Under the pieces are notes generated by a model, which searched no databases, was not told the DNA's origin, and saw only the letters and a list, made by a program, of their open reading frames with translations. A stretch of DNA of 64,000 bases from the NCBI GenBank assembly GCA_031382385.1, contig JANMYS010000174.1:10568-74567 (forward strand), given 5' to 3'. Numbering within the stretch: the first letter of the stretch is position 1; the number at the start of each line of letters is the position of its first letter. The translations under genes and the position numbers were made by a program. The DNA comes from Gemmatimonadota bacterium (GTDB lineage Bacteria > Gemmatimonadota > Gemmatimonadetes > Gemmatimonadales > GWC2-71-9). This document shows positions 11,075 to 28,068 of the stretch, in pieces.

Positions 11075-11114
11075 TGCACCGCATGGGGCTGGGTGAACGC
11101 AATCCGGTCGAGCA

Positions 11115-11176: not shown

Positions 11177-11220
11177 GCCTGGCGCCGGAATCGGAGTGGT
11201 GAGTGGGGTGGCAGGCGTGA

Positions 11221-11715: not shown

Positions 11716-11889
11716 GGCCTGGTCCGAAAGGGTCGGGGCAATCTACCCCGCCGAGAGTATGCGGACGACACCGAGGATTGTCAGTCAGTGGTCTTGTCGA
11801 GCACCAACCGCACTCGCTGAGTCAGCGTGGCGATAGAGCAGGGCTTGGGGAGGAACTCCACCCCCTCCTTCAGTACCCCTCCTGCATAA

Positions 11890-14595: not shown

Positions 14596-14639
14596 CGGGT
14601 CAAGATGCAGCCCGATGCGGCCGGGCGGTAGGGGCGGCG

Positions 14640-15245
14640 TTACTCCACCCGCACCGCCTCGAGCGCGATCGTGATCTCCACGTCGTTGCCGATCAGCGTG
14701 TTGGCGCCGACGATGCTGTTCCACTCCATCCCGTAGTCGCGCCGGTCGATCGTCGTCGTCGCGTCGAACGCGATTCGCTCGCGGCCGTCGCTGTCCTTCG
14801 CGATGCCGCGGTACTGGCCGGTGAAGCTGGCCGGGTGCGCGTGGCCCTTGATGGTCAGCAGGCCCACGATTTCGGTGGTGGTGTCGCTCCGGGCCAGGCT
14901 GGAACCGCGGAAGCTCAGCTCCGGAAAGCTGTCCACCGCGAAGAACCGCTCGCCGCGCAGGTCGGCGTCGCGGACCGCGTTCCCGGTGTTGAGGCTTGCC
15001 GTCTGCACCGTCACGTCGACCCGCCCGCTCCGGACCCCCCGGTTATCGGTGGTGATGACGGCGTACCAGTTGGTGAAGGTGCCACGCACCCGGCCCACCA
15101 GGTGGCGGACCCGGAAATCCACCTGCGAATGGACGATGTCCACGATCCAGCGGCCGGCCTTCGGCACCCCGGACCCCTGCGCGGCCAGGCTCCCTGAAAG
15201 GCCGGCCAGCAGCATGCCGACCAGCACCAGCGTCCGACGGTTCAT
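14640..15245 (-). CDS. YceI-family periplasmic protein
   Basis: The signal peptide is 'LVLVGMLLAGLSGSLAAQ'. 'VDIVHSQVDFRVRHLVGRVRGTFT' and 'LLTIKGHAHPASF' are typical YceI patterns. The ATG at 15245 was verified. Confidence 0.88.
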   Translation of the reverse strand: MNRRTLVLVGMLLAGLSGSLAAQGSGVPKAGRWIVDIVHSQVDFRVRHLVGRVRGTFTNWYAVITTDNRGVRSGRVDVTVQTASLNTGNAVRDADLRGERFFAVDSFPELSFRGSSLARSDTTTEIVGLLTIKGHAHPASFTGQYRGIAKDSDGRERIAFDATTTIDRRDYGMEWNSIVGANTLIGNDVEITIALEAVRVE

Positions 15246-15413
15246 GGCGCGCTCCCTTGTTGGGTTCCTCATGAAGGATATGCCGCGAAGGTGAAGGAGC
15301 CGTGAGGATTGGCGGAATGAGGGGTTGCGCCAAAATCACGCAAGCCGCACACTCTCCCCCGGCAGCTTCATCCACCCCATTATCGTTCCCCCTCCACGCT
15401 CGGAGTATCGCCC

Positions 15414-18275
15414 TTGGCTGCACCGCACGACCCTAAGGCTGCGATTCAGGCCGCCTTGGCGGATCGGTACGAGCTGCTCGACGAGATCGGCCGGGGGGGA
15501 ATGGCCACCGTGTATCTCGCCCGCGACCGGCGGCACGGCGCGCGGGTCGCCATCAAGGTCCTGCGCCCCGAACTCCTGTTCGCCATGGGCGGCGAGCGCT
15601 TTCTCCGCGAAATCCACATCAGCGCCAGTCTGCAGCATCCCAACATCCTCCCGGTCCTCGACTCGGGCGAAGCCGCCGGCACATCCTATTTCGTCATGCC
15701 ATTCGTCGAAGGGGAATCGCTGCAGCAGCGGCTCCAGCGGGAGACCCGGCTGCCGGTGGACGAGGCGGTGCGCCTGACCGCCGAGGTGGCCGACGGGCTC
15801 GCGCACGCTCACACCGCCGGGTTCATCCATCGCGACATCAAGCCCGGCAACATCCTGCTGTCCCACGGGCATGCGGTGCTCGCGGACTTCGGGGTGGCCC
15901 GTGCGCTGGATGCATCAGGGGCCGATCGTCTCACCGAGACCGGGTTGTCGGTGGGCACCGTGGCGTACATGAGCCCGGAGCAGGCCGGTGCGGGCCGCCT
16001 CGACGGGCGGAGCGACATCTACTCACTGGGATGCGTGCTCTACGAGATGCTGGCCGGCACACCGCCCTTCACCGGCCCGAGCGCCCAGGCCATCATGGCC
16101 CGGAATGCCATCGACCCGGTGCCGAGCATTCGCACCGTGCGGCAGGGCGTGCCCCAGGCACTCGAGGCTGCGATCAACCGGGCGCTCGCCAAGGTGCCGG
16201 AGGATCGCTTCGCTACCGTGGCGGAGTTCCGGGATGAGATCATCCGGGCCGCCGCGACTCCGATTATCACCACGGCAACACCGCCGGCGACCCGGCCCTG
16301 GTGGCGTCGGCGCCAGGCGCTGCTCGCGGCGGCGATTGTCGGGCTCGGCGCGATCATCCTTCTGTGGCGGGGGACCGCGGTTCGTCCGTCGCTCGATCCC
16401 AATCGGGTGATGGTGTACCCCTTCGTGCTCCCCAGCGACTGGCCCGGTGCCCGCACCTCGGGCGAGGATATCGCCACCGTCATCGGGAGTGCGATGGACG
16501 GCGCTGGATCCCTCCGCTGGGTGGATGGCTGGCAACTCCTCCAGCCGGCGCAGCGGGAGAACATCCGCCTGCTGGCGGTGCAGGAGGCGATGGAAATCGC
16601 TCGCGCCCAGCGCTGTGCCTATGCCATCACCGGCCGGCTGGTGGCGCGGGGTGATTCCGCCGACGTCTTCCTCGAACTCTACGACGTGCGCGGTGACTCG
16701 GTCATCGCCCGCACCCCGGGGCAGTCCGCGAGCATCAGCGAAAGCTGGCGCGGGGGCATGCGGGCGGTCACCACCATTCTTCCCCGGCTCATCCCGACCG
16801 CCGTGCCCGATGTCGAGGCCGAATGGAAAGCGCGGCCGCCGCAGGCGGTGGCCCATTTCCTCCTGGGCGAGGCCGCGTTCCGGCGGGTGCAATTGGCCGA
16901 CGCACTGGCGGAGTTCCGCAAGGCGATCGCTGCGGATTCGACCTTCGGGATCGCGGCAGTGCGGGGGGCGCAGGCCGCCGCCTGGAACCATCAGCCCCGT
17001 CAGGCGGCGTCGCTGATTCGCATCGCGACGGGTCAGGAGCTCTCGCCGCGCTACCAGCTTTTCGCCCGTGGCGTCGCATCCTACCTCGATGGTCGTGCCG
17101 ACTCGGCGGTCGCGCAGTTGCGTGCCGCGCTGGAGCTGGACCCGTCCATGGTGGTCGCCTGGATGCAGCTGGGCGAGGTGTACATGCATCTCCTCCCGGT
17201 CGAGGGGAACACCGATAGCCTCGCCGAGGCAGCCTTCGGACGAGCGCGCGCGCTCGACTCGACCGCGACCACCGTGCGATTCCACCTGGTGGAGATTCTC
17301 GCCCGTCGGGGTGATCGGGCCGGATCCGCTCTCCTGGCCCGGCAGTTCGCCCGGCTGGCGGCGGACACCCAGCTCGCCCGCCAGGTCGAACTGGTCTCGG
17401 CCTGTGGACCCACCGGGTTTGAGGGCATGGATCTCCGGGCCACTGCGGTGCGCAGCCCGCTGCCGCTGAGCCTCGCCGCTATGTCGTTAGGTGCATCCAC
17501 CGTCACTTCGAAGTGTGCACTGGCCGGATACGCCATGCTGCTGCAGGAAGACACCGCCCGGACCGAGGCGGCGGAGGGCCGTCGCTTCTTTGCGCTGCTC
17601 GGCCTGGTCAACGCGCTGCTGGGCCGGGGACGGACCGATGAAGCCGCGACTGCCATCGAACAGTTCCGCCAGCGGTGGGGATCCGGCGCGTCGCTCTACC
17701 TGCTGGCAGCACCGGTGGAGCCGGCGTTCGCCGATCGGGCCCGTGCCCTCGCCCGACAGGATTCCGTTGATTACGGCCCGACCTACGCCCGTGTCCCCTA
17801 TCCGGTGCGCCTGTGGGAACTGGGGGTCTGGGCGGCGGACGAGGGAAAGGCGCCCCTCGCCCGCGCGGTCGCCCGCGACCTCGCCACCCGGGCCATGCGC
17901 GGTGCGCGGATCGATACCCTGCTGGCCTCTTCCATGGCAGCACACGCGACACTGGCGGAGGGCGACTCCCTGCTGGCGCTCCAGCTGTTTGAACGGTTGA
18001 TTGGAGGAGCCTCCCCAGCCGACGAGCTGACCTGGAACGAAGTCGCCTCGCTCGGGCTCGATCGGTTGATGCTGGGGCGGCTGCTCATCTGGCATCGGGA
18101 GTACGCCCGCGCCTTTGGAGTGCTGGCGGTGCACGACTCGGCGCTGCCCGCGGTGTACCCGCTCTATCTGCGGGCCAGCCTGCTGCTCCGGGCGGACGCG
18201 GCCACTGCGCTTAACGAAACACCGCTGGCGGCTTCGCTGCGGGCCCGCGTGGCGGCGCTGTCCAGCGGCTCATGA
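15414..18275 (+). CDS. Ser/Thr protein kinase, one TM segment, large helical (TPR-like) C-terminal region
   Basis: The start is TTG. Kinase motifs are 'IGRGGMATVYLARDRRHGARVAIKVL', 'HRDIKPGNILL', 'DFGVA' and 'GTVAYMSPEQ'. The TM segment is 'ALLAAAIVGLGAIILLW'. About 600 aa of Ala/Leu/Arg-rich helical repeats follow. Confidence 0.9.
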   Translation: MAAPHDPKAAIQAALADRYELLDEIGRGGMATVYLARDRRHGARVAIKVLRPELLFAMGGERFLREIHISASLQHPNILPVLDSGEAAGTSYFVMPFVEGESLQQRLQRETRLPVDEAVRLTAEVADGLAHAHTAGFIHRDIKPGNILLSHGHAVLADFGVARALDASGADRLTETGLSVGTVAYMSPEQAGAGRLDGRSDIYSLGCVLYEMLAGTPPFTGPSAQAIMARNAIDPVPSIRTVRQGVPQALEAAINRALAKVPEDRFATVAEFRDEIIRAAATPIITTATPPATRPWWRRRQALLAAAIVGLGAIILLWRGTAVRPSLDPNRVMVYPFVLPSDWPGARTSGEDIATVIGSAMDGAGSLRWVDGWQLLQPAQRENIRLLAVQEAMEIARAQRCAYAITGRLVARGDSADVFLELYDVRGDSVIARTPGQSASISESWRGGMRAVTTILPRLIPTAVPDVEAEWKARPPQAVAHFLLGEAAFRRVQLADALAEFRKAIAADSTFGIAAVRGAQAAAWNHQPRQAASLIRIATGQELSPRYQLFARGVASYLDGRADSAVAQLRAALELDPSMVVAWMQLGEVYMHLLPVEGNTDSLAEAAFGRARALDSTATTVRFHLVEILARRGDRAGSALLARQFARLAADTQLARQVELVSACGPTGFEGMDLRATAVRSPLPLSLAAMSLGASTVTSKCALAGYAMLLQEDTARTEAAEGRRFFALLGLVNALLGRGRTDEAATAIEQFRQRWGSGASLYLLAAPVEPAFADRARALARQDSVDYGPTYARVPYPVRLWELGVWAADEGKAPLARAVARDLATRAMRGARIDTLLASSMAAHATLAEGDSLLALQLFERLIGGASPADELTWNEVASLGLDRLMLGRLLIWHREYARAFGVLAVHDSALPAVYPLYLRASLLLRADAATALNETPLAASLRARVAALSSGS

Positions 18276-18321
18276 GGTGTCCCCGAAGGCCGGATTCAAC
18301 ATGCGTACTCGGAGGGAACCG

Positions 18322-18600
18322 ATGACGGATAGCTCCAGGAAGGACGACGTACCACGCGGGCGCGAAGGCGCACCGCCTCCCCCTCCGCCTGGTGGTGGCC
18401 GCGAAGGCGCGCCGCCGCCGCCCCCGCCCGGCAAGGGCCGCGAAGGAGCCCCACCTCCGCCGCCACCCGGTGGTGGCCGTGAGGGAGCGCCGCCTCCTCC
18501 CCCGCCGGGTAAGGGCCGTGAGGGAGCCCCACCACCACCGCCGCCCGGCAAGGGCCGCGACGGAGCACCGCCGCCGCCACCGGCCAAGCCGGCCAAGTAG
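18322..18600 (+). CDS. 92-aa polyproline tandem-repeat miniprotein, (REGAPPPPPPG[G/K]G)x5 plus one degenerate unit
   Basis: GGAGGG lies 5 nt before the ATG at 18322; an alternative ATG is at 18301. The five 13-aa units are protein-identical except for a G/K position, yet use different Pro/Ala/Gly/Arg codons. There is no signal peptide. Confidence 0.6.
   Translation: MTDSSRKDDVPRGREGAPPPPPPGGGREGAPPPPPPGKGREGAPPPPPPGGGREGAPPPPPPGKGREGAPPPPPPGKGRDGAPPPPPAKPAK
18361..18555 (+). repeat. Five tandem 39-bp coding repeats (a sixth, degenerate unit runs to 18597)
   Basis: The units start at 18361, 18400, 18439, 18478 and 18517. I read this directly from the sequence. Confidence 0.9.
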
Positions 18601-18685
18601 TTGAACTGAAGCAGGCCCGCGCCGCGCCAGACGTCGGTCTGGCGCGGAACGGGCATGCGCTCGCCGACCGTTCCCCTCTCTCGAG

Positions 18686-21600
18686 ATGCAGACCATGTCC
18701 GACCTCCCTGCAGGTACCGCACGCCGGGCGCTGCTCATCGGCATCGATGCCTATCCCAAGATTCGGCAGTTGTCGGGCTGCGTGAACGACGTGCGCCTCA
18801 TGCGCACGATCCTGCAGGACAACTTCGGCTTCGCGCCCGACACGATCACGGTGCTGGAGAACGGTGAGGCGACCCGAGCCGCCATTCTCGCCGCGTTCGA
18901 TGCGCTCATTGCCGCGACCGGACGCGACGACATCGTGGTGATCCACTTCGCCGGGCACGGGTCGCAGATGACCGACCTCGAGGGCGACGAGCCGAGCGGC
19001 CTGGACAGCACGATCATGCCGTTCGACACCGAGGGGTGGCAGGGGGACAACCGCGACATCACCGACGACGAGATCGGCCTGATGCTCGACGCGCTTGGAG
19101 CGCGGACCTCGTACATCACCCTCATCTTCGACTCGTGCCATTCGGGGACCATCACCCGCGACGCGGTCGGCGCCAATGGCCGCTCGGTCCAGGCGGACAC
19201 CCGCCCGGCGAGCGAGTTGAAGCGGCAGCCGGTCGCCGGCGTGGCGAGGGCGACGACGCGGTCGGCCGGTCCCAGCGGCTGGATGCCGATGACCGAGAAG
19301 TACGTGCTTATCTCCGGCTGCCGGGACGAGGAGACCTCATTTGAGTACCAGCCCCCCGAAGGCGAGGGCAAGGTCTCGCATGGGGCGCTCACCTACTTCC
19401 TCTCGCAGCAGCTGCGACAGGCGACCCCCGGGACGACCTACCGCGACATCTTCGAGCGCGCCGCCGCCCGGGTGAACGCGGTCAACAACGCCCAGCATCC
19501 GCAGATGGAGGGCAAGGCCGACCGCGAAATCTTCGGGGTCCGCGAGGTGACGCCGACGAAGTTCCTCCGCGTCACCGCCCGTGACGGCGGCACGGTGACA
19601 CTCTCGGCTGGCGCGGCACAGGGGGTCACCACCGGCTCGGTCTACGCCATCCACCCGCAGGGCACGAAGGACCCCGCCTCATCCTTTGCCCAGGGCGAAG
19701 CCGAGGTCACGGAAGTCGGTGTCGTCTCGTCCCAGGCCCGCATCACGAGCGAGGCCTCGGCGGGGACTATCACGCCGGATGCACGCGCCTTCGAGACCCG
19801 CCATGCCTTCGGGGACTTCCGGCTCGGCATCACCGTTCTCGATACCCCGGGCGCCGAGGCAGCCATGCTCCGCGCCCTGCTCGACGGCTCGACCCTGCTC
19901 AAGGTGCTCTCGGGTGGTGAGCCGGGGGCGGTCACCGTCCGGCTGCTGCCTGCCCGGGAACAGGTGGTGCAGACCGACCCGGTACCGCGGGCGGGAGCGC
20001 TCCGCGCCCCGATGTGGGCCAGCTTCGGCGAGACCGGTGACCTGCTCATGCCGCTCAAGGCGCTGGGCGATGAGAAGACGATCCGCGAAAACCTCGAAAC
20101 CCTCGCCCGCTTTCGTCAGGCGCTGGCACTGGAGAACCCCGATCCGGACAGCAAGCTCCGCGGGAAGTTCACCCTCGACCTCCTCAAGCAGGACGCGCAG
20201 GGGAAGTGGGTGGTGGCCGAGCCCGAAACGGCGGGAGGACAGATCGTCTACACCGAGGGCGACGCGATCGGCTTCCAGGTCAGCAGCCAGCACGACAGTC
20301 CGGTGTACACCGCTCTGGTGGATTTCGAGGTGACCGGCGCGGTGACCCCGCTCCGGCCGCCACGCCGGGCACCGGCGGCGCAGGAGAAACTCGGCGCCGG
20401 CATCACCTACAAGATCGGGCCGGAACTCAAGCAGGCGCCGCGCGTCACCTGGGACGCCGGCTTTCCCTTCATTGACAGCATCGATCACAGCCGGGAAGCC
20501 GAGGCGATCGAGACGGTGAAGCTGTTCATCACCGAGCAGCCCGCCGACTTCTCGGTGCTCGAGCAGAAGGGTGTGCGCGGCGACTCGGCGGGCAAGCCCA
20601 CGCCGCTCGGCAACCTGCTGCAGCGCGCCTTTCAGGGCAGCCCCACCCGGGGCATCGAGATGGCGCCCGCCGCCGAGGAGGACTGGACCACGGTCGCACG
20701 GTCGTTCGTAGTGCGGCGGCGAACCAGCGCGCCACTGCGCGAGGACGGGGCCGAGCTGGTGATCGGCGGGGCGACGCTCGCCACCAAGGGGCTCAGCGGC
20801 ACGGTCAGCACCTATTTCGGGAAGAAGGGGCGGGAGGAGGCGGAGCTGCTGGTCGGCAGTCCGCTGACCGCGGCACTGGCCGGCGCGGGCATCGACGTGC
20901 GCCAGACCGTCGCGATCGCGGGAGCGAAGGAGACCGGAGCGCCTACCCGGAGCGCCGGGGTGCAGCCGGCCTTCGAACTCAAGCTGTCCCACCCGGGCGA
21001 GGGCTTTGGCCAGATGGTCATGTCGGCCGATGAGCTGGGCGTCGTGTCGTGGCACTTCGCGCCGCCGGCTGCCGCCGCAGGAACCCGAGGCGGGGCGGGA
21101 TCGCCTTCGGCAACGCGAACCTATGTGATTCCTCGCGGGGTACCGGCGGAGCAGGCAGGGGGCGCCGCCACTCGCGGAATCGTCACGGCGATCGGCACCA
21201 AGCTGCTCAAGGAGATGGTCTTTCCGCTCATTGATCCGATCATCGGTGAGGTGAGCGCCACCTTCGTCAATCGGCTGGAACAGCATCGCTGGCCCTACCG
21301 TATCCGGGCCTTCGGCCCCGGCGACTTCACCACCGACACCGCCGCTCCGCTCGACGGCGAGGGCTGGTCCCGGCTGGCCGGCGGCCGGGCGCTCCTGATG
21401 GTGCACGGCACCTTCAGCCGGTCGCATCTTGCCTTCGGGCACCTGCCCGCGCCATACATGGAAGAACTGCACCGCCGCTACGGAGGGCGGGTCTTCGCCT
21501 TTGATCATTTCACGCTGTCGCATGATCCGCGGGAGAACGTGCGCCGGCTCCTGGCTGTGGTGCCCGAGGCCGCCTCGCTCGATCTCGACATCATCTGTCA

Positions 21601-22207
21601 CTCGCGTGGTGGCCTGGTGAGCCGGATGCTGAGCGAGAAGCAGAGCGAGTTCTCGCTGGGCAGCCGAAAGCTGCGGGTGGGTAAGGTCGTGTTCGTGGGC
21701 GCGCCGAACGCCGGGACCAGTCTGGCCGACCCGGCAAACCTGAACAACGTGCTCGACGTCTTCACCAACCTGCTCAATTTTCTGCCGGACAACGGCGTCA
21801 CCGATGTGATGACGATGATCGTCAGTGTGCTGAAGCAGGTCGCGACCGGCGCCATGGCGGGTCTCGAGGGGTTGCAGTCGATGCGCCCCGATGGCGAGTT
21901 CGCCAAGTGGATGAATACCGGGGCCCGCGTGGGCGACACGAAGTACTTCGCGCTGGCGGCCAACGTGACCCCAAAGGACCCGGGCCTGAAGCACTTCGTC
22001 CTCTCGCGCGGACTGAACTTGCTGATCAAGGGCGACAACGACCTGGTGGTGCCGACCAGGGGGGTCTTCGCCGAGAACGGGTCGGGCTTCTTCCCGATCG
22101 AGGAGAAGCTCGTGCTGGAGGGAGATGAGGCGGTGTCGCACACGAAGTATTTCGAGAATGCGGCGGTGCAGGGGAAGATCCTGGAATGGCTGGGCAGCGG
22201 TGCCTGA
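18686..22207 (+). CDS. Caspase-like (peptidase C14) protease fused to beta-rich middle modules and a C-terminal Ser-Asp-His alpha/beta-hydrolase (lipase/esterase-like)
   Basis: The N-terminus reads 'RRALLIGIDAY...CVNDV...VVIHFAGHGS' (His91, codon 18956) and 'LIFDSCHSG' (Cys151, codon 19136). The C-terminus reads 'LLMVHGTFS', 'DIICHSRGG' (Ser973, codon 21602), 'GDNDLVVP' (Asp1119) and 'VSHTKYF' (His1152). There is no signal peptide or TM segment. Confidence 0.9.
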   Translation: MQTMSDLPAGTARRALLIGIDAYPKIRQLSGCVNDVRLMRTILQDNFGFAPDTITVLENGEATRAAILAAFDALIAATGRDDIVVIHFAGHGSQMTDLEGDEPSGLDSTIMPFDTEGWQGDNRDITDDEIGLMLDALGARTSYITLIFDSCHSGTITRDAVGANGRSVQADTRPASELKRQPVAGVARATTRSAGPSGWMPMTEKYVLISGCRDEETSFEYQPPEGEGKVSHGALTYFLSQQLRQATPGTTYRDIFERAAARVNAVNNAQHPQMEGKADREIFGVREVTPTKFLRVTARDGGTVTLSAGAAQGVTTGSVYAIHPQGTKDPASSFAQGEAEVTEVGVVSSQARITSEASAGTITPDARAFETRHAFGDFRLGITVLDTPGAEAAMLRALLDGSTLLKVLSGGEPGAVTVRLLPAREQVVQTDPVPRAGALRAPMWASFGETGDLLMPLKALGDEKTIRENLETLARFRQALALENPDPDSKLRGKFTLDLLKQDAQGKWVVAEPETAGGQIVYTEGDAIGFQVSSQHDSPVYTALVDFEVTGAVTPLRPPRRAPAAQEKLGAGITYKIGPELKQAPRVTWDAGFPFIDSIDHSREAEAIETVKLFITEQPADFSVLEQKGVRGDSAGKPTPLGNLLQRAFQGSPTRGIEMAPAAEEDWTTVARSFVVRRRTSAPLREDGAELVIGGATLATKGLSGTVSTYFGKKGREEAELLVGSPLTAALAGAGIDVRQTVAIAGAKETGAPTRSAGVQPAFELKLSHPGEGFGQMVMSADELGVVSWHFAPPAAAAGTRGGAGSPSATRTYVIPRGVPAEQAGGAATRGIVTAIGTKLLKEMVFPLIDPIIGEVSATFVNRLEQHRWPYRIRAFGPGDFTTDTAAPLDGEGWSRLAGGRALLMVHGTFSRSHLAFGHLPAPYMEELHRRYGGRVFAFDHFTLSHDPRENVRRLLAVVPEAASLDLDIICHSRGGLVSRMLSEKQSEFSLGSRKLRVGKVVFVGAPNAGTSLADPANLNNVLDVFTNLLNFLPDNGVTDVMTMIVSVLKQVATGAMAGLEGLQSMRPDGEFAKWMNTGARVGDTKYFALAANVTPKDPGLKHFVLSRGLNLLIKGDNDLVVPTRGVFAENGSGFFPIEEKLVLEGDEAVSHTKYFENAAVQGKILEWLGSGA

Positions 22208-22452
22208 GCCGCTGGTAGCCGCCAAACCGACGGGGGGAAGCCGGTCAGGGGAGACGGGCGAGGCTGAACCCACCATGATCTGACCGGCGGCCGTGGCCGC
22301 GGACCACGCCCCCGACCTCTCTCCGGAGGCCGGGGGCTTCTATTTCCACCCGGCCGAGCGAACTCGCACGGGCCGACCGAAGGATGACGTGGGTTCGGGG
22401 TCCTGCCGGGCTCCCGATCCCGCTCTGCCGGTCGCCACCTCCCCCGGTCTGC

Positions 22453-22502
22453 TTGACAGGTCCGTGACTTTGGCGCATACTTTGTTCGCATACCGAACAA
22501 AG
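22453..22502 (+). promoter_or_regulatory. Candidate promoter (TTGACA-N17-CATACT) overlapping palindromic operator CTTTGTTC-N7-GAACAAAG (site 1)
   Basis: TTGACA is at 22453-22458, CATACT at 22476-22481, and the palindrome at 22480-22502. This is an AT-rich island about 75 bp upstream of the ATG at 22576. The same palindrome recurs at 37840-37862. Confidence 0.5.
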
Positions 22503-22575
22503 ATCAGGGTGCCGCCCGGCATCCTCGACCGCGCCCATGTCGGGATCTCCGCAGCCAACCTGGAGTAAAGAGAAG

Positions 22576-25500
22576 ATGCCCCCGAGAATCTCGTCAATTC
22601 GCGTCCTGGCGCTCGTCGGGATCGTCGCAGTGGGTGGTTGTACCCGGGATCTCGATACCCTTGGGCCGGCCCAGTTCCCGACCGATGCCGGCGTCTTCGC
22701 TGAGGGCCTGGCCTCGGGCGTCCGCTTCGAGGCGTTCAGCGGCGCGAAGCCCGATGCCATCAGTGACGACCCCAGCAACGCGCACAGCGGAGCGCTTGGG
22801 CTCAAGTTGACCGTCCCGGCGCCGGGGGATCCCTCCGGGAGCTACGCCGGCGGTGCCTTCATCGCCAATGTCCCTCGCGATCTCTCCGGCTACAACGCCC
22901 TGACCTTCTGGGCCAAGGCGAGCATCGCCGCCAGTCTCGATGTGGCTGGTCTGGGCAACGACAACACCGGCACCTCCAAGTACACCGCCCAGCAAACCGC
23001 CATCGCGCTGACGACCAGCTGGAAGAAATACACCATCCCGATTCCGCTCGCGGCCAAGCTCACCAAGGAAGGAGGGCTTTTCTTCTTTGCCGAGGGGCCG
23101 GAGAACGGGGCCGGGTACAGCATCTGGCTGGACGACATGCAGTTCGAGACGGTCACCACGATCACCAATCCCCGCCCCGTGATTGCGCCCGCGACGGTCT
23201 CCGATGAAGTCGGCGCCAGCCTGCGGGTGGGGGGCACCTCGGTGACCTTTGCGGTGGAAGGGGTTGACCAGACCCTGGTGGCCGCCCCGGCGTACTTCAC
23301 CTTTGTCTCTTCTGACGTGGCGGTGGCTACCGTGGCGCCGGACGGGCTGATCACGCTGGTCGGGTCCGGCAGCGCCTCCATCACTGCGCAGCTGGGCACG
23401 ACCCCGGCGACCGGTACCGTGACGCTGCTCTCTGTCGCTCCGCCGGCCGTGGCCGCGCCGGTGCCGACCGACTCCGCCGTCAACGTGATTTCCCTCTACA
23501 GCAACGCATACACCAACAACACGGTGGACACCTGGTCGGCCGGCTTTGACCAGGCCGACGTGGCCGATGTGCAGATCGCCGGCGACGACGCGAAGAAGTA
23601 CACCAATCTGGTCTTTGCCGGGATCGAGTTCATCACCCAGCAGGTCAATGCCACCGCGATGACCGGGTTCCACCTTGATCTCTTCGTCCAGAACGCCGGC
23701 CAGTTCAAGGTCAAGCTGGTGGACTTCGGCGCCAATGGCGCCTTTGGCGGTGGCGACGACTCCGAGCATGAGGTCACGCTGACGACGAGTTCCACGCCTG
23801 CCATCACCTCCGGGAGCTGGAGCAGTCTGGATATTCCCTTCTCCTCCTTTCCCGGCCTGACCTCGAGGGCGCATCTCGCCCAGATCATCATCTCCGGCTC
23901 GAGCAGCACGTTGTACCTGGATAACGTCTACTTCTTCAAGGGTTCCACGCCGCCGCCGCCGACCGGACCGACAGTCGCGGCGCCCACGCCGACTGTGGCC
24001 TCGGGCAGCGTGATCTCGCTGTTTAGCAACGCCTACACCAACGTCACCGTGGATACCTGGTCGGCGGTGTGGGACAACGCGGACGTGGCTGACGTCCAGG
24101 TGGCAGGCAACGACACCAAGAACTACACCAACCTGGTCTTCGCTGGCATCGAGTTCACCTCGGCGCCGGTGGATGCCTCGACGATGACCGCCTTCCACAT
24201 GGACATCTGGACCCCGGATCCGACCGCGGCACCGGCGGTGTTCAAGGTCAAGCTGGTGGACTTCGGGGCGAACGGCACCTTCGGCGGCGGTGACGACGTC
24301 GAGCACGAGCTCGCCTTTGACGCCACCACCACCCCGGCGCTTGCCACCGGCAACTGGGTGGGGATCGACGTCCCCCTGTCAGCCTTCACCGGCCTCACCA
24401 CCCGTGGCCACCTGGCTCAGATCGTCATCTCGGGTACGCTGGGCACGCTGTACATGGACAACGTCTACTTCTACGCCGGCGGAAGCCCGCCGACTTCTCC
24501 GCCCACCCCGGCGCCCACGCCCACGAAGCCGGCGGGCAACGTGATCTCGCTGTACAGCAACGCCTACACCAACGTCACCGTGGACACCTGGTCGGCGGTG
24601 TGGGACGTGGCCGACGTCGCGGATGTGCTGGTCGTTGGCAATGACGTGAAGCAGTACACCAACATGGTCTTTGCCGGCATCGAGTTCACCTCGGCGCCAG
24701 TGGATGCCTCGACCATGACCGGCTTCCACATGGACATCTGGACGCCAGATCCCACGACGACGGGTGCGGCGTTCAAGGTCAAGCTGGTGGACTTCGGGGC
24801 CGACGGTAGCTTCGGCGGTGGCGACGATGTGGAGCAGGAGCTGATGTTCACCAACGCGTCCACTCCGCCGCTCGCCACCGGCAGCTGGGTGGGGATCGAC
24901 GTTCCCCTGTCGGCCTTCACCGGCCTGGTGACCAGGGCCCACCTGGCCCAGATGGTCATCTCGGGAACGCTGAGCACGGTCTACGTCGACAACGTCTACT
25001 TCTATAACAGCGGCGGGGCACCGACGCTCTCGTCGATTGCCATCACGCCAAACCCGGTCAACCTCGTCCCGGCAGGGACCCAGCAGCTGACGGTGACCGG
25101 CACCTACAGCGACGCGTCGACCGCAAACCTCACTTCCGGTTCGACCTTCGGCTCCAGCGCGACGGGCGTCGCGACGGTCAGCAACGGGGGGCTTGTCACC
25201 GCGGTCGCCGTCGGCACGGCAACGATCACCGCCACCCACACGGCGTCCGGCCTGACGAACACCGTGACGGTGAACGTGGCGACCGGCAGCAGCGGCGGGC
25301 TGGTCTTCTTCGGCGGCTATGATCCCGGGGTGAGTTTCGTCGATTTCGGCGGGGCCACGAACAATGTCTCGATCGATGCGACGACGCCGAACAACGGCCG
25401 CTCCTCCTTGAAGGCCGTCATCACCGGGTCGGGCGGATACTCGGGCGGCGCCTTCGTGGCGTCCCTGCCGCGCAACCTCTCCTCCTTCAATGCCCTGACC

Positions 25501-26556
25501 TTCTGGGCCAGGGGGAGCACTACCAACGCCAGCCTCAAGGTCGGCATCGGCAACAACGGGACCAGTAACCTGCTCAACGCCGAAGCGATCGGCATTGCGC
25601 TCACGACGACCTTCACCAAGTACATCATCCCGCTGCCGGACCCCAGCAAGTTCACCAGCTACGACGGGCTGTTCCATTTCGCCGACGGGCCCAACAACTA
25701 CACCGTCTGGTTCAACGACGTGCAGTACGAGAACCTGCCTTCCAACCTTGTGGCACCGCCCACCGCTGCCCTGGCCGCCTGGCCGAGCCTGACGGTCGCG
25801 GTCGGTACGCCGGCGCAGATGAACCCGGCACCGAACACGGTCAACTGGACCGTGCCGGCGCTGCCCAACGGTGGCAAGCTGACCGATGTAGCCTGGCGCT
25901 GGTACACCCTCACCTCCAGCAACCCCAGCGTTGCCACGGTCAGCGCCGACGGACTGGTCACCGGCGTCTCGGGCGGAACGGCGAACATCACTGCCACCAT
26001 GAACGGCATCGTGGTCTCGGGGAACGCGCCCATCACGGTGACCGCGCCGCTGGGCGTGCCGACCACGATTGCCCCCACGCCGACGGTGAATCCGGCCAAC
26101 GTGATCTCGCTGTTCAGCAGCGCCTACACCAACGTGGGCGTGGACACCTGGCGGACCGGCTGGAGCAGCTGCTGCAACCAACTGGTCGACCCCTACGTGA
26201 TCAGCGGCCATGATGTGAAGCAGTACACCCTGGCCAATTTCGTCGGCGTCGAATTCGGGGTCACCCCCCTGGGGCTCAACACGGTGAACGCGACGACGAT
26301 GACCCACTTCCACGTGGACGTCTGGTCACCCAACCCGTCCAGCAATCTCGAGATCCAGCTCGTCAATGACGCAACCGGGTCAGCGGCGATCGGCCGCTAT
26401 CAGGCGGGGGCCACGGCGAGCGGCAGCTGGGTTTCCCTGGACATCCCGCTGTCGAGTTTCGCCGGGCTGAGCGCCAAGGACAAGCTGCAGCAGCTGCTCT
26501 TCGTCGCGGCGGGACCGACGGTGCTGTACATCGACAACGTCTACTTCCACAACTAG
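22576..26556 (+). CDS. Large surface lipoprotein with repeated putative carbohydrate-binding modules and Big_2 domains
   Basis: GGAG lies 10 nt before the ATG at 22576. The lipobox is 'LVGIVAVGGC'. There are two type-A jelly-roll-like modules ('YSGGAF.A..PR.LS..NALTFWA'). Four type-B modules run from 'VISL[YF]S.AYTN..VDTW' to 'LY.DNVYF'. Three Big_2-like segments are also present ('VAT V..DGL.T.V..G.A.ITA'). Confidence 0.85.
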   Translation: MPPRISSIRVLALVGIVAVGGCTRDLDTLGPAQFPTDAGVFAEGLASGVRFEAFSGAKPDAISDDPSNAHSGALGLKLTVPAPGDPSGSYAGGAFIANVPRDLSGYNALTFWAKASIAASLDVAGLGNDNTGTSKYTAQQTAIALTTSWKKYTIPIPLAAKLTKEGGLFFFAEGPENGAGYSIWLDDMQFETVTTITNPRPVIAPATVSDEVGASLRVGGTSVTFAVEGVDQTLVAAPAYFTFVSSDVAVATVAPDGLITLVGSGSASITAQLGTTPATGTVTLLSVAPPAVAAPVPTDSAVNVISLYSNAYTNNTVDTWSAGFDQADVADVQIAGDDAKKYTNLVFAGIEFITQQVNATAMTGFHLDLFVQNAGQFKVKLVDFGANGAFGGGDDSEHEVTLTTSSTPAITSGSWSSLDIPFSSFPGLTSRAHLAQIIISGSSSTLYLDNVYFFKGSTPPPPTGPTVAAPTPTVASGSVISLFSNAYTNVTVDTWSAVWDNADVADVQVAGNDTKNYTNLVFAGIEFTSAPVDASTMTAFHMDIWTPDPTAAPAVFKVKLVDFGANGTFGGGDDVEHELAFDATTTPALATGNWVGIDVPLSAFTGLTTRGHLAQIVISGTLGTLYMDNVYFYAGGSPPTSPPTPAPTPTKPAGNVISLYSNAYTNVTVDTWSAVWDVADVADVLVVGNDVKQYTNMVFAGIEFTSAPVDASTMTGFHMDIWTPDPTTTGAAFKVKLVDFGADGSFGGGDDVEQELMFTNASTPPLATGSWVGIDVPLSAFTGLVTRAHLAQMVISGTLSTVYVDNVYFYNSGGAPTLSSIAITPNPVNLVPAGTQQLTVTGTYSDASTANLTSGSTFGSSATGVATVSNGGLVTAVAVGTATITATHTASGLTNTVTVNVATGSSGGLVFFGGYDPGVSFVDFGGATNNVSIDATTPNNGRSSLKAVITGSGGYSGGAFVASLPRNLSSFNALTFWARGSTTNASLKVGIGNNGTSNLLNAEAIGIALTTTFTKYIIPLPDPSKFTSYDGLFHFADGPNNYTVWFNDVQYENLPSNLVAPPTAALAAWPSLTVAVGTPAQMNPAPNTVNWTVPALPNGGKLTDVAWRWYTLTSSNPSVATVSADGLVTGVSGGTANITATMNGIVVSGNAPITVTAPLGVPTTIAPTPTVNPANVISLFSSAYTNVGVDTWRTGWSSCCNQLVDPYVISGHDVKQYTLANFVGVEFGVTPLGLNTVNATTMTHFHVDVWSPNPSSNLEIQLVNDATGSAAIGRYQAGATASGSWVSLDIPLSSFAGLSAKDKLQQLLFVAAGPTVLYIDNVYFHN
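23485..25008 (+). repeat. Three tandem ~525-531-bp coding repeats (type-B modules B1-B3); a fourth dispersed copy starts at 26101
   Basis: The units start at 23485, 24010 and 24541. B2 and B3 are visibly about 85-90% identical at the DNA level over long stretches (by eye, not computed). Confidence 0.85.
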
Positions 26557-28046: not shown

Positions 28047-28068
28047 TCACCCTTTCACCCACCGGGCC

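What the first reader, a model, noticed from the sequence alone, without database searches (positions are those of the whole stretch)
15414..22207. Candidate three-gene module: membrane Ser/Thr kinase (TPR-like sensor), polyproline miniprotein, caspase/hydrolase
Seen: the three genes are co-directional with short gaps (18275 to 18322, and 18600 to 18686). I could find no hairpin terminator between them. A ~330-bp gap follows the third gene before the unrelated glucan locus. Inference: the kinase has an extracytoplasmic or helical-repeat sensor region and could gate the effector by phosphorylation. The disordered Pro-repeat protein, or the Ser/Thr-rich loops of the large protein, would be plausible substrates. 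This would form a signal-to-effector cassette. Caveat: kinases are abundant in this genome, so the adjacency could be coincidental.
Basis: inference. Interest (0 to 1): 0.55.

Follow-up and report, generated by a model that had tools for sequence, protein, structure and literature searches.

The report
Kinase, arginine-repeat miniprotein, caspase-hydrolase cassette
The three neighbouring genes are a real unit, conserved across Gemmatimonadota: a membrane sensor kinase, a fast-evolving small repeat protein with one arginine per repeat, and an arginine-cutting caspase-like protease fused to a lipase-like enzyme that resembles known protease-triggered bacterial suicide effectors.

Summary
The three ORFs exist as described: kinase 15414-18275, 92-aa repeat miniprotein 18322-18600, metacaspase + DUF7379 hydrolase 18686-22207. 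One detail is wrong. A strong GC-rich hairpin (18615-18654) lies between genes 2 and 3.

The adjacency is not chance:
- The orthologous kinase sits directly upstream of the caspase-hydrolase in 17 of 20 evaluable Gemmatimonadota species, and in 0 of 8 from other phyla.
- Starting from the kinase sensor domain alone, 47 of 69 metagenomic kinases are followed at once by a tandem-repeat mini-ORF.
- Repeats and a caspase gene co-occur (19 both, 5 repeats only, 1 caspase only, 10 neither).

"Polyproline" is a local feature. The conserved motif is G-R-(E/D/G)-(G/P)-x3-P, with a period of 12-13 aa.

The protease is metacaspase-like, with an acidic S1 pocket, so it should cut after Arg. The hydrolase carries three invariant R-(G/S) sites in disordered loops. 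This matches the published caspase/alpha-beta-hydrolase zymogen logic.

Best reading: a periplasmic-sensor kinase controls a self-licensing death effector, and the miniprotein is a multi-site protease target or decoy. Phosphotransfer, cleavage and the trigger are untested. I rate it a new variant of a known kind.

The parts
15414..18275 (+). Gene 1: single-pass membrane Hanks-type Ser/Thr kinase, 953 aa (TTG start)
   Evidence: Pkinase E 1.5e-50. The VAIK, HRDIKPGN, DFG and SPEQ motifs can be read in the translation. The 92%-identical database orthologue P0121 has the same length.
15468..16211 (+). Cytoplasmic kinase domain (aa 19-266)
16317..16373 (+). Single predicted transmembrane helix (aa 302-320, ALLAAAIVGLGAIILLWRG), preceded by RRRQ
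   Evidence: Kyte-Doolittle 2.06, the only peak. 85 of 109 orthologues show one such peak.
16404..18272 (+). Extracytoplasmic sensor: alpha/beta domain (aa 331-460) plus TPR-like solenoid of about 24 helices (aa 467-950)
   Evidence: AF2 pLDDT 91.9, pTM 0.89. Foldseek matches TPR superhelices and the CadC periplasmic domain (TMt 0.54-0.57). Two invariant Cys. TPR_2 scores 28.5 bits against a cut-off of 27.
18311..18316 (+). Shine-Dalgarno GGAGGG, 5 nt before the miniprotein ATG
   Evidence: Conserved in close relatives, where it reads as '..RREPM..'.
18322..18600 (+). Gene 2: 92-aa repeat miniprotein. Six units of REGAPPPPPPG(G/K)G (repeats 18361-18582). No signal peptide and no TM segment.
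   Evidence: 73 synonymous vs 6 non-synonymous codon differences between units. Positional homologues in more than 60 loci. No Pfam, NCBIfam or PADLOC family.
18615..18654 (+). G+C-rich stem-loop between gene 2 and gene 3, without a U-tail. Candidate attenuator, partial terminator or 3' stabiliser.
   Evidence: -37.7 kcal/mol for 44 nt. Equivalent hairpins of different sequence in about 21 of 38 related loci.
18686..22207 (+). Gene 3: cytoplasmic metacaspase-like protease fused to a DUF7379 alpha/beta hydrolase, 1173 aa. The start may be ATG 18695, because the 100%-identical database protein has 1170 aa.
18722..19513 (+). Peptidase_C14 domain (aa 13-276). Catalytic H91 and C151 (FDSCHSG). Acidic S1 residues D149 and E220.
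   Evidence: invariant in 32 sequences; AtMC4 1.3e-23; Foldseek 2.4e-15. S1 residues mapped from PMC7206013.
19565..21133 (+). Beta-rich middle region (aa 294-816), including a weak DUF4384 match at aa 521-593
20939..21196 (+). Low-confidence loops carrying three invariant Arg-(Gly/Ser) sites: R755 (20948-20950), R801 (21086-21088), R830 (21173-21175). Candidate licensing cleavage sites.
   Evidence: 29, 32 and 32 of 32 fused proteins. (26/26, 25/26 and 26/26 when stand-alone DUF7379 proteins are included). (pLDDT below 50 at 752-759, 796-806 and 819-837).
21182..22204 (+). Alpha/beta-hydrolase domain (long helix 833-868, then the core). Nucleophile elbow HSRGG (S973). D1119 and H1152.
   Evidence: elbow aligns with that of palmitoyl-protein thioesterase 2; S973, D1119 and H1152 in 26/26.
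22320..22346 (+). Terminator-like hairpin with a T-rich tail that ends the cassette

Best explanation
The region is a conserved three-gene signal-to-effector cassette specific to Gemmatimonadota.

Shown:
1. Gene order kinase, then repeat miniprotein, then caspase-hydrolase is kept across lineages whose proteins have diverged to 36-40% identity.
2. The kinase is a single-pass membrane protein. It has an intact cytoplasmic Hanks kinase domain and a large extracytoplasmic CadC/TPR-like sensor.
3. The miniprotein is translated under purifying selection. It evolves by concerted change of its repeat unit. It always keeps one Arg per unit of about 12-13 aa, in the motif G-R-(E/D/G)-(G/P)-x3-P.
4. The effector is a cytoplasmic metacaspase-type protease with an intact His/Cys dyad and acidic S1 residues. 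It is fused to a Ser-Asp-His alpha/beta hydrolase.
5. Three invariant Arg-(Gly/Ser) sites lie in disordered loops just before the hydrolase. They are also invariant in stand-alone DUF7379 hydrolases, three of which were checked and are encoded next to CHAT proteases.

Inferred mechanism:
- The protease cuts after Arg.
- It licenses its own hydrolase domain, in cis or in trans, by cutting at R755, R801 and R830. This converts a latent zymogen into a toxic lipase- or esterase-like effector, as shown experimentally for the separate LcCaspase/LcHydrolase pair (cut at two R|G sites).
- The miniprotein offers 2-12 Arg sites per chain and acts in the cytoplasm as a multi-site competing substrate or pseudosubstrate. 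It buffers the protease and sets a threshold or delay.
- The kinase senses an envelope or periplasmic signal and tips this balance by phosphorylating the effector, or the N-terminus of the miniprotein.
- The hairpin after the miniprotein gene keeps kinase and miniprotein in excess over the effector.

The likely outcome is regulated cell death or growth arrest, of the abortive-infection or conflict-system type.
For: Conservation:
- 17/20 Gemmatimonadota species representatives have the orthologous kinase directly upstream, against 0/8 in other phyla.
- Reciprocal search from the sensor domain: 47/69 kinases are followed by a tandem-repeat ORF. Among 35 loci with at least 1.5 kb downstream, the counts are 19 repeats + caspase, 5 repeats only, 1 caspase only, 10 neither.

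Miniprotein motif: across 63 loci, Arg 100% (alignment anchor), Gly at -1 78%, E/D/G at +1 96%, G/P at +2 91%, Pro at +6 97%.

Coding status: 73 synonymous vs 6 non-synonymous differences between units.

Protease class:
- Best sequence and fold matches are all Arg/Lys-specific clan-CD enzymes: AtMC4, AtMC9, Yca1, TbMCA2, MALT1.
- D149 and E220 align with AtMC4 S1 residues D137 and D352 and are invariant.

Cleavage-site candidates.

Protease/hydrolase pairing:
- CHAT genes directly precede stand-alone DUF7379 genes in Pseudomonadota, Acidobacteriota and Planctomycetota.
- The pairing and the R|G double cleavage are published (PMC7159879; PMC12642450).

Conflict-system context in relatives:
- Kinase-mini-TPR-TIR-caspase with Trypco1.
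- CHAT, then caspase-DUF7379, then Peptidase_C11, then caspase-STAND, plus TIR.

Clan-CD proteases accompany the miniprotein even when the order changes: CHAT or a caspase lies upstream of the kinase in L083, L105 and L124.
Against: - No biochemical step was tested.
- The miniprotein travels with the kinase rather than with the protease. It is absent from all 11 evaluable caspase-DUF7379 loci that lack the kinase. It persists next to the kinase where no caspase-DUF7379 is adjacent (L081, L092, L130, L146/147). That fits a kinase partner at least as well as a protease substrate.
- P1' in the miniprotein is mostly Glu or Asp, with Pro at P2' in one class. The conserved sites in the hydrolase have Gly or Ser, so the repeats may be poor substrates.
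- Homology between DUF7379 and the published LcHydrolase could not be checked, because no sequence was available.
- The window's surroundings are not a typical defence island: YceI, another kinase, a glucan-utilisation locus.
- About a third of kinases of this family have neither miniprotein nor caspase.
- Several metagenomic loci are near-duplicates, so the counts overstate the number of independent observations.
Confidence: 0.45

Rival explanations
1. Danger-peptide loop, analogous to plant PROPEP1 / metacaspase 4 / PEPR receptor kinase. The miniprotein is a leaderless multi-copy propeptide. On activation the Arg-specific protease chops it into identical 11-14-residue peptides. These escape when the hydrolase damages the cell. 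The periplasmic TPR sensor of the kinase on the same or neighbouring cells binds them and spreads an alarm.
For: - The tightest gene pair is sensor kinase plus mini-ORF, the layout of receptor and propeptide gene pairs.
- One Arg per unit would give uniform peptides.
- The unit sequence diversifies quickly and in concert while the sensor domain diverges faster than the kinase domain, for example 47% against 68% identity in L007.
- TPR solenoids are peptide binders, and the sensor is extracytoplasmic.
- The closest solved relative of the protease is AtMC4, which releases Pep1 from the leaderless PROPEP1 by cutting after Arg69.
Against: - The miniprotein has no export signal, and no transporter is conserved in the cassette.
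- Peptides of about 1.2 kDa would have to cross the outer membrane of a diderm.
- There is no evidence of binding.
- Single-motif variants carry a folded N-terminal part and only one Arg motif, which fits a repeated-peptide precursor poorly.
- The sensor fold also resembles CadC, a pH and small-molecule sensor.
Confidence: 0.15
2. The miniprotein is a cytoplasmic partner of the kinase, as substrate, docking scaffold or regulator, and is not a protease target. Kinase and miniprotein form an input module that can be coupled to different outputs: caspase-hydrolase, TPR-TIR-caspase or CHAT.
For: - The miniprotein always lies immediately downstream of the kinase. It stays there when the output genes differ or are placed upstream.
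- It is absent wherever the kinase is absent.
- A defined short linear motif, GR(E/D)G-x3-PP, recurs at fixed spacing, as in multivalent docking ligands.
Against: - Ser/Thr is not conserved in the repeats and is absent from the window's repeats.
- Only the kinase domain and a short juxtamembrane stretch are on the same side of the membrane as the miniprotein.
- The invariant residue is Arg, which is the expected P1 residue of the associated proteases.
- In most loci with enough sequence a clan-CD protease is nearby (19 of 24).
Confidence: 0.2
3. This is not a death or conflict system. The caspase-hydrolase is a regulated housekeeping protease and esterase, for example for envelope or lipid remodelling under kinase control. 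The miniprotein is an accessory factor.
For: - The window's neighbourhood is ordinary metabolism.
- The cassette looks vertically inherited within one phylum, and its base composition is not atypical.
- No tRNA gene lies nearby.
- PADLOC hits are only generic domain matches.
Against: - Relatives sit among TIR, STAND, CHAT, Peptidase_C11 and Trypco1 genes.
- The protease/alpha-beta-hydrolase pairing is a published conflict-system theme with demonstrated toxicity.
- The rapid, concerted diversification of the repeat resembles arms-race or specificity evolution.
Confidence: 0.12
4. The mini-ORF is not a functional protein. It would be a translated leader whose poly-proline stretches stall ribosomes (EF-P dependence) and, with the downstream hairpin, attenuate expression of the caspase gene.
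For: - There are six PPPPPP runs in the window.
- A strong hairpin lies 15 nt after the stop, with no room for a promoter before gene 3.
- Pro at +6 is nearly universal and Pro at +7 is common.
Against: - Many relatives have no poly-proline run (KGREDSVAPVTG, KREGVAAP, RGGDAAPQAVKG).
- Arg and its neighbours, which are irrelevant to stalling, are the most conserved positions.
- The protein sequence of the repeats is under purifying selection.
- About 17 of 38 loci lack the hairpin.
- The ORF persists next to the kinase where no caspase gene follows.
Confidence: 0.04
5. The adjacency is coincidental, in a kinase-rich genome.
For: At least three kinases lie in this 64-kb window. Some members of this kinase family stand alone.
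Against: The specific orthologous kinase (sensor-domain identity 36-92%) keeps the same position and strand in 17/20 species. The reciprocal test gives the same answer.
Confidence: 0.02

Closest known systems
Caspase-like protease + alpha/beta-hydrolase zymogen modules of prokaryotic conflict and defence systems (LcCaspase/LcHydrolase of Lysobacter capsici, Evans et al. bioRxiv 2025, PMC12642450; 'alpha/beta hydrolase-CASPASE pairing', Kaur et al. eLife 2020, PMC7159879)
   Same: - A clan-CD protease is obligatorily linked to an alpha/beta hydrolase.
- The hydrolase carries conserved Arg-Gly sites: two in LcHydrolase, three R-(G/S) sites here.
- Stand-alone DUF7379 genes lie next to CHAT genes.
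- Relatives sit among TIR, STAND and Trypco genes.
   Different: - Here protease and hydrolase are fused in one 1173-aa chain, with about 520 aa of beta-rich domains between them.
- The candidate sites lie before the hydrolase core rather than inside a hydrolase of about 300 aa.
- The input is a membrane Ser/Thr kinase plus a repeat miniprotein, not a STAND, WD40 or vWA-MoxR sensor.
- Homology of DUF7379 to LcHydrolase was not testable. Toxicity and cleavage are not shown.
Arabidopsis METACASPASE 4 / PROPEP1 / PEPR receptor-kinase damage signalling (PMC7206013)
   Same: - An Arg-specific metacaspase, the closest solved relative by sequence and fold.
- A small leaderless precursor. PROPEP1 is also 92 aa.
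- A single-pass receptor Ser/Thr kinase with an extracellular solenoid-repeat domain.
   Different: - The resemblance is one of parts only.
- The sensor is TPR/CadC-like, not LRR.
- The precursor is a tandem repeat.
- No evidence of release or perception.
- The bacterial protease is fused to a hydrolase.
Orthocaspase MaOC1 of Microcystis, encoded next to a toxin-antitoxin pair whose antitoxin it cleaves (PMC7935541, title and abstract)
   Same: A bacterial Arg-specific caspase homologue acts on a small protein encoded beside it and releases a toxic activity.
   Different: - There the small protein is a folded type II antitoxin of a separate toxin.
- Here it is a disordered Arg-periodic repeat, the toxic candidate is fused to the protease, and a kinase is part of the unit.
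Receptor and propeptide gene pairs of peptide quorum sensing (RRNPP family: Rap-Phr, NprR-NprX, PlcR-PapR, AimR-AimP). From my own knowledge, not tested here.
   Same: A TPR-type receptor gene is followed at once by a small ORF whose sequence diversifies with the receptor.
   Different: - RRNPP receptors are cytoplasmic, and their propeptides carry secretion signals and are imported by Opp.
- Here the TPR domain is periplasmic on a kinase, and the mini-ORF has no signal peptide and is a tandem repeat.
Membrane Hanks-type kinases with a TolB_N/CadC-like domain plus a TPR ectodomain, common in Gemmatimonadota, Acidobacteriota and Rhodothermales
   Same: The same overall architecture. The Rubrivirga kinase L164 shows Pkinase, a weak TolB_N match and strong TPR matches.
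   Different: This particular sensor-domain family was found only in Gemmatimonadota. About two-thirds of its members are tied to the repeat mini-ORF.

Membership tests
Hanks-type Ser/Thr protein kinase (Pfam PF00069) | Profile match above the curated cut-off | tested here: met
   172.5 bits against a cut-off of 31.7, aa 19-266
Hanks-type Ser/Thr protein kinase (Pfam PF00069) | Catalytic motifs: VAIK Lys, HRD catalytic loop, DFG, APE-like | tested here: met
   VAIKVL, IHRDIKPGN, ADFGVA and MSPEQ are read directly in the translation and are nearly invariant in 38 sequences
Hanks-type Ser/Thr protein kinase (Pfam PF00069) | Phosphotransfer to a protein substrate | not testable with these tools
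   Needs an in vitro kinase assay or phosphoproteomics
Peptidase C14 metacaspase/orthocaspase (Arg/Lys-specific clan CD) | Profile match above the cut-off and a caspase/hemoglobinase fold | tested here: met
   108.2 bits against 21.4. AtMC4 1.3e-23 by sequence. Foldseek 2.4e-15, probability 1.00.
Peptidase C14 metacaspase/orthocaspase (Arg/Lys-specific clan CD) | His-Cys catalytic dyad | tested here: met
   H91 (AGHGS) and C151 (DSCHSG) are invariant in 32 sequences
Peptidase C14 metacaspase/orthocaspase (Arg/Lys-specific clan CD) | Acidic S1 pocket (AtMC4 D137, S84, S350, D352) | tested here: met
   These align to D149, A89, S218 and E220. Both acidic positions are kept and invariant. Ser84 is replaced by Ala.
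Peptidase C14 metacaspase/orthocaspase (Arg/Lys-specific clan CD) | Cleavage after Arg/Lys | not testable with these tools
   Needs a peptide or protein cleavage assay
Protease-licensed alpha/beta-hydrolase death effector (Evans 2025; Kaur 2020) | Obligate linkage of a clan-CD protease with an alpha/beta hydrolase | tested here: met
   Fused in more than 100 proteins. Stand-alone DUF7379 genes are directly preceded by CHAT genes in L054, L076 and L079.
Protease-licensed alpha/beta-hydrolase death effector (Evans 2025; Kaur 2020) | Intact Ser-Asp-His hydrolase triad | tested here: met
   S973 (HSRGG), D1119 and H1152 are present in 26/26 sequences, and invariant or nearly so in 32
Protease-licensed alpha/beta-hydrolase death effector (Evans 2025; Kaur 2020) | Conserved Arg-Gly cleavage sites in the hydrolase | tested here: inconclusive
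   Three invariant R-(G/S) sites lie in low-pLDDT, gap-rich loops. Conservation fits, but cleavage itself was not tested.
Protease-licensed alpha/beta-hydrolase death effector (Evans 2025; Kaur 2020) | Sequence homology of the hydrolase to the characterised LcHydrolase family | not testable with these tools
   No sequence or accession is in the held text and no supplement is held. No paper mentions DUF7379.
Protease-licensed alpha/beta-hydrolase death effector (Evans 2025; Kaur 2020) | Toxicity after cleavage, or anti-phage protection | not testable with these tools
   Needs expression and phage-challenge experiments
Secreted-peptide signalling pair (RRNPP-like or plant Pep-like) | Receptor gene adjacent to a small precursor gene | tested here: met
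   47/69 kinases are followed by the mini-ORF within about 100 nt
Secreted-peptide signalling pair (RRNPP-like or plant Pep-like) | Export signal on the precursor (RRNPP type) | tested here: not met
   No hydrophobic N-terminus: MTDSSRKDDVPRG.... Plant PROPEP1 is likewise leaderless, so this excludes the RRNPP type only.
Secreted-peptide signalling pair (RRNPP-like or plant Pep-like) | Binding of the processed peptide by the receptor ectodomain | not testable with these tools
Needs ITC, SPR or AF3.
Known single-gene kinase defence systems (PD-T4-6, MADS Mad6, BREX PglW) | Full-length match to the system's protein model | tested here: not met
   PADLOC and NCBIfam matches cover only the kinase domain (aa ~10-300) and fall below curated cut-offs. 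For example, MAD6 scores 154 bits against 460 and PglW 95 against 990.

The most novel reading that the evidence does not exclude
The cassette could be a bacterial counterpart of the plant metacaspase / PROPEP / receptor-kinase danger-signal pathway.
- A leaderless tandem-repeat precursor is cut after each Arg by the metacaspase-like protease into identical peptides of about 12-13 residues.
- The peptides are released when the fused hydrolase damages the cell.
- The periplasmic TPR sensor of the kinase on sister cells perceives them.
- The repeat unit and the sensor co-diversify into 'pherotypes'.
Probability: 0.13. Interest if true: 0.9.

Novelty: new variant of a known kind. Interest (0 to 1): 0.66.

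Why it matters
Protease-gated death effectors are emerging as a main logic of prokaryotic immunity. The known inputs are cytoplasmic sensors such as STAND NTPases, CRISPR effectors and vWA-MoxR systems.

This cassette would add two new elements:
- A transmembrane Hanks kinase with a periplasmic sensor as the input. That links events outside the cell or in the envelope to a caspase-type executioner.
- A fast-evolving small protein that presents a periodic Arg motif. It is a candidate threshold-setting decoy, or a multi-copy peptide precursor.

The finding also gives a first functional context for DUF7379, including three candidate licensing sites. It shows the caspase/hydrolase pair as a single self-contained polypeptide.

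All predictions can be tested with three recombinant proteins and a few point mutants.

The finding concerns Gemmatimonadota, an abundant and little-studied soil phylum.

Tried and rejected
- Family searches for the miniprotein (Pfam, NCBIfam, PADLOC) found nothing.
- PADLOC PD-T4-6, Mad6 and MkoA hits, and NCBIfam PknB, MAD6 and PglW hits for the kinase, cover only the generic kinase domain and fall below curated cut-offs. I rejected them as evidence of membership.
- The NCBIfam 'caspase, EACC1-associated' hit scores 48 bits against a cut-off of 140. Rejected.
- A literature search for DUF7379 gave 0 papers. Orthocaspase + kinase + operon gave 1 irrelevant paper. One search failed on syntax.
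- I looked for the LcHydrolase sequence or accession in PMC12642450. None is in the text and no supplement is held.
- The sigma-70 promoter scan found no site upstream of the kinase or inside the cassette. This is uninformative for this phylum.
- Phospho-acceptor idea for the repeats: 11 of 53 unit types lack Ser/Thr, as expected by chance, and the window's units have none. Rejected as the conserved function.
- Poly-proline or EF-P stalling as the conserved property: rejected, because many relatives lack Pro runs.
- Thr at P2 of the R-(G/S) sites as a kinase-specific gate: Thr is also frequent in stand-alone hydrolases not linked to kinases, so it gives no specific support.
- No tRNA genes lie in the window, and base composition shows no sign of a mobile island.
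- The whole-protein Foldseek search gave only caspase-domain matches. The middle domains and the hydrolase were not resolved this way. Sequence search of the hydrolase against PDB gave only a marginal PPT2 hit (E 0.024).
- Not attempted: a formal co-evolution test (repeat unit against sensor against protease). All three are linked and inherited together, so it would not discriminate.

Full report
**1. What is in the sequence**

The window has about 68% G+C. Its closest relatives are all Gemmatimonadota. Three + strand ORFs lie at the coordinates given.

Gene 1 (15414-18275, 953 aa):
- It has a Pkinase domain at aa 19-266 (E 1.5e-50) with all catalytic motifs readable in the translation.
- It has one hydrophobic segment at aa 302-320, preceded by RRRQ. 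This is the only Kyte-Doolittle peak, and 85 of 109 orthologues show the same single peak.
- It has a 623-aa C-terminal region.

Gene 2 (18322-18600, 92 aa):
- It starts 5 nt after a GGAGGG Shine-Dalgarno.
- It consists of an N-terminal MTDSSRKDDVPRG, six units of REGAPPPPPPG(G/K)G, and a short tail.

Gene 3 (18686-22207, 1173 aa; possibly starting at 18695, because the identical database entry has 1170 aa):
- It has Peptidase_C14 at aa 13-276 and DUF7379 at aa 903-1077.
- It has no signal peptide and no TM segment.

A terminator-like hairpin with a T-rich tail (22320-22336) and a sigma-70-like promoter (22453-22481) separate the cassette from the next gene, a 1339-aa Big_2 protein. Beyond that lies a glucan-utilisation cluster: ROK, GH16, MFS, two GH3 and a GH2-like gene.

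**2. Correction to the observation**

A strong stem-loop lies between genes 2 and 3, at 18615-18654. It has an 11-bp inner stem and a 5-bp outer stem, all G+C-rich, a GTCG loop and no U-tail. The 95-nt spacer folds at -47.2 kcal/mol, z = -3.0.

About 21 of 38 related loci with both genes have an equally strong hairpin of different sequence at the same place. The others have spacers of 60 nt or less without one.

Only about 30 nt remain between the hairpin and the start of gene 3. So gene 3 is most likely expressed by read-through, with the hairpin acting as an attenuator or as a 3' stabiliser of the kinase-miniprotein message. This is an inference.

**3. The miniprotein is a real gene**

Among the first five repeat units, 79 of 91 nucleotide differences fall on third codon positions. 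73 of 79 differing codons are synonymous. The protein sequence is therefore maintained by selection. It is not a recent DNA duplication or a shadow ORF of a high-GC genome.

**4. The trio is conserved: caspase-seeded test**

The caspase-DUF7379 architecture is widespread. There were 966 hits at E < 1e-10 among the scored candidates, from Gemmatimonadota, Acidobacteriota, Rhodothermales and others.

I took 80 loci from one-genome-per-species contigs. Of these, 28 have a full-length gene and at least 3.3 kb upstream.
- In 17 of 20 Gemmatimonadota loci, a kinase lies directly upstream on the same strand. Its sensor domain is orthologous to the window's (36-90% identity over about 620 aa).
- In 0 of 8 loci from other phyla is this so.
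- The linkage persists where the caspase domain is only 36-47% identical (L064, L043, L032).

**5. The trio is conserved: kinase-seeded test**

The sensor domain defines a family of kinases of about 950 aa. Every member that carries a taxon name is from Gemmatimonadota. I scanned metagenomes with a sensor-domain alignment, which is blind to the caspase. This gave 80 loci.
- 69 loci have the kinase stop and at least 240 nt downstream. In 47 of them a tandem-repeat ORF begins within about 100 nt.
- 35 loci have at least 1.5 kb downstream. Of these, 19 have repeats and a caspase gene, 5 have repeats only (one of them a false positive), 1 has a caspase only, and 10 have neither.

Three long contigs show variations on the theme:
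- Kinase, miniprotein, TPR, TIR, Peptidase_C14, with Trypco1 nearby (L081).
- CHAT, kinase, miniprotein, with a stand-alone DUF7379 2.7 kb further on (L083).
- A kinase alone (L082; also L167).

In L105 and L124/125 the caspase lies upstream of the kinase.

Some metagenomic loci are near-duplicates, so the counts overstate independence. Even so, 53 distinct repeat-unit sequences were seen.

**6. What is conserved in the miniprotein**

The unit differs between lineages but is homogeneous within a gene, which indicates concerted evolution. Examples:
- REGATAPPPPGKG
- RGGETPPPPPGGG
- RTGDSPPPAAKG
- REDSVAPVTGKG
- REGVAAPK
- RGGDAAPQAVKG
- REGPPAPPIASDG
- RDPQPKPIEAID
- RDPVAKPVVSAP

The period is 12 or 13 aa in most cases (range 8-14, or doubled). 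Copy number is 2 to 12.

I aligned 63 loci on the Arg:

| Position | Residues | Frequency |
|---|---|---|
| -1 | Gly | 78% |
| 0 | Arg | 100% (alignment anchor) |
| +1 | Glu / Asp / Gly | 51% / 29% / 16% |
| +2 | Gly / Pro | 70% / 21% |
| +6 | Pro | 97% |
| +7 | Pro | 57% |

Poly-proline is thus a local elaboration. Ser/Thr is missing from 11 of 53 unit types, including the window's. That is what chance predicts for a 12-mer.

Some distant loci have a non-repeated small protein instead. It has a helical N-terminal part and a single C-terminal ...G-R-(D/G)...PPPP or GGGG tail (L017, L020, L021, L022, L046, L160).

The miniprotein was never found upstream of a caspase-DUF7379 gene that lacks the kinase.

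**7. The effector**

In an alignment of 32 full-length proteins (46-89% identity to the window's), the following are invariant or nearly so:
- The caspase dyad, H91 and C151 (DSCHSG).
- The hydrolase elbow HSRGG (S973), with D1119 and H1152.

The protease domain is metacaspase-like:
- AtMC4 scores E 1.3e-23 by sequence. Yca1, AtMC9, TbMCA2 and GSU0716 follow.
- By fold the same set appears, plus MALT1.
- All characterised members of this set cut after Arg or Lys.
- The AtMC4 S1 pocket residues D137, S84, S350 and D352 (PMC7206013) align with D149, A89, S218 and E220. The two acidic positions are invariant here.

The AF2 model has mean pLDDT 72. It shows the caspase domain, about 520 aa of beta-rich domains, a long helix (833-868) and an alpha/beta core.

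Conserved Arg residues followed by Gly or Ser occur at 631, 655, 755, 801 and 830. All five lie in, or directly beside, segments with pLDDT below 50.

I aligned the window's region 670-1173 with 25 stand-alone DUF7379 proteins of about 490-540 aa. They come from Acidobacteriota, Chloroflexota, Actinomycetota, Planctomycetota, Pseudomonadota and Gemmatimonadota. The counts below include the window sequence:
- R755 is present in 26/26 (next residue Ser, Ala or Gly).
- R801 is present in 25/26 (next residue Gly or Ser).
- R830 is present in 26/26 (next residue Gly or Ser).
- The surrounding loops are variable and gap-rich.

Three such stand-alone genes were checked, and a CHAT protease gene directly precedes each. 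In the Planctomycetota locus a Pkinase-TPR gene precedes the CHAT gene.

**8. Comparison with the literature**

- Kaur et al. (PMC7159879) noted that caspase domains in vWA-MoxR conflict systems are always accompanied by an alpha/beta hydrolase.
- Evans et al. (PMC12642450) showed that LcCaspase cuts LcHydrolase at two conserved R|G sites. Fragments split exactly at those sites kill E. coli.
- The window's gene 3 looks like the same logic in a single chain, with three candidate sites.
- I could not test whether DUF7379 is homologous to LcHydrolase.
- No held paper mentions DUF7379.
- None of the orthocaspase papers I found describes a kinase or repeat-protein partner.

**9. The sensor**

The C-terminal 623 aa fold with high confidence (pLDDT 91.9, pTM 0.89) into an alpha/beta domain followed by about 24 paired helices.

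Foldseek finds TPR superhelices (OGT, TTC7, Ski3, designed consensus TPRs). It also finds the periplasmic domain of CadC with the best target coverage (TMt 0.54-0.57, rmsd about 5.7 Å).

Two Cys residues are invariant, consistent with a periplasmic disulfide, as in CadC. Together with the single TM helix, this places the sensor outside the cytoplasm. The kinase domain, the miniprotein and the effector are inside.

**10. Most likely mechanism, and how sure I am**

I put the probability that the three genes form one functional unit at about 0.9 or higher.

My preferred mechanism (0.45):
- The effector is a self-licensing zymogen that cuts after Arg at R755, R801 and R830.
- The miniprotein, with its periodic Arg motif, is a cytoplasmic multi-site substrate or pseudosubstrate that buffers the protease.
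- The kinase relays a periplasmic or envelope signal that shifts the balance.
- The result is hydrolase-mediated death or arrest.

Weak points:
- The miniprotein tracks the kinase, not the protease.
- Its P1' residue is usually acidic, unlike the Gly or Ser of the presumed licensing sites.

Rivals:
- A kinase-partner role for the miniprotein (0.20).
- A plant-like danger-peptide loop, in which cleaved units are sensed by the TPR ectodomain (0.15).
- A housekeeping role, not death (0.12).
- A translated leader (0.04).
- Coincidence (0.02).

**11. Verdict**

The miniprotein needs to be redefined as an Arg-periodic repeat, not a polyproline protein. The effector belongs to a recently characterised kind. 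The kinase-plus-repeat input and the fused architecture appear undescribed. Every mechanistic step beyond gene linkage and sequence features remains to be tested.

Noticed in passing
window 11890-14724 (-) and 14640-15272 (-): A second Ser/Thr kinase (944 aa) with a PD40/beta-propeller C-terminus, and a YceI-like gene, lie just upstream and are transcribed away from the cassette. The same kinase is seen upstream in close relatives (L003, L033), so this is local synteny and not part of the conserved module.
   Followed up: partly
window 39744-42646 (-): A third Ser/Thr kinase (524 aa, 41072-42646) lies directly upstream of an ECF-type sigma factor with DUF6596 (39744-41063). This may be a kinase/sigma regulatory pair.
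   Followed up: no
window 26820-37834: Beta-glucan utilisation cluster: ROK regulator/kinase, GH16, MFS sugar transporter, two GH3 genes and a 1071-aa GH2-like protein.
   Followed up: partly
window 47887-53146 (+): A MoxR-type AAA_3 ATPase (47887-48900) is followed by two or more co-directional ORFs (48981-49859; 51101-53146, the latter with no Pfam hit). The layout resembles MoxR-DUF58-vWA/Bat operons. Only the ATPase was checked.
   Followed up: partly
L165 (Vicinamibacterales) 3629-14964: Four clan-CD protease genes stand in a row: CHAT, caspase-DUF7379, Peptidase_C11 and caspase-nSTAND/NACHT. A TIR gene and a PD40 kinase lie beside them. This suggests a proteolytic cascade island.
   Followed up: no
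L081 7001-14877: The same kinase + repeat miniprotein pair (REGGTAPPDKG x6) is coupled to a different output: TPR protein, TIR protein, a 328-aa caspase, and Trypco1 on the opposite strand. L092 and L130 also have a TPR protein after the miniprotein.
   Followed up: partly
L079 (Planctomycetota) 1706-9443: The order is Pkinase-TPR (1156 aa), RRM-CHAT (870 aa), stand-alone DUF7379 (492 aa). This is an independent kinase/clan-CD protease/DUF7379 association in another phylum, without a repeat miniprotein.
   Followed up: no
L032, L043, L044, L048, L064, L065 (just after the caspase-hydrolase gene): One subclade carries a second caspase-domain gene immediately downstream, about 27-33% identical to the window's caspase domain.
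   Followed up: no
L164 (Rubrivirga marina) 11570-14833 (-): Convergent with caspase-DUF7379 and CHAT lies a Pkinase-TPR gene followed by a 101-aa beta-rich ORF. That ORF ends in ...CKGGRDKQYTGGGGGGGV. The tail resembles the single-motif miniproteins of distant Gemmatimonadota loci.
   Followed up: partly
L146/L147 (after the kinase stop): A miniprotein with RDPIPPPVESVD x6 follows the kinase, but no caspase homologue was detected in up to 8 kb downstream. The output of these loci is unknown.
   Followed up: no
window 18361-18582 and all related mini-ORFs: Pro at Arg+6 is 97% conserved and is usually followed by another Pro. Such X-P-P motifs commonly depend on EF-P for translation (from my own knowledge). 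Synthesis of the miniprotein might therefore report on translation capacity.
   Followed up: no
window 22537-26556 (+): The 1339-aa Big_2 / Ig-like repeat protein has a lipoprotein-like N-terminus and its own promoter-like site. Several long shadow ORFs lie on the opposite strand (for example 22594-24306 and 24379-26313).
   Followed up: no
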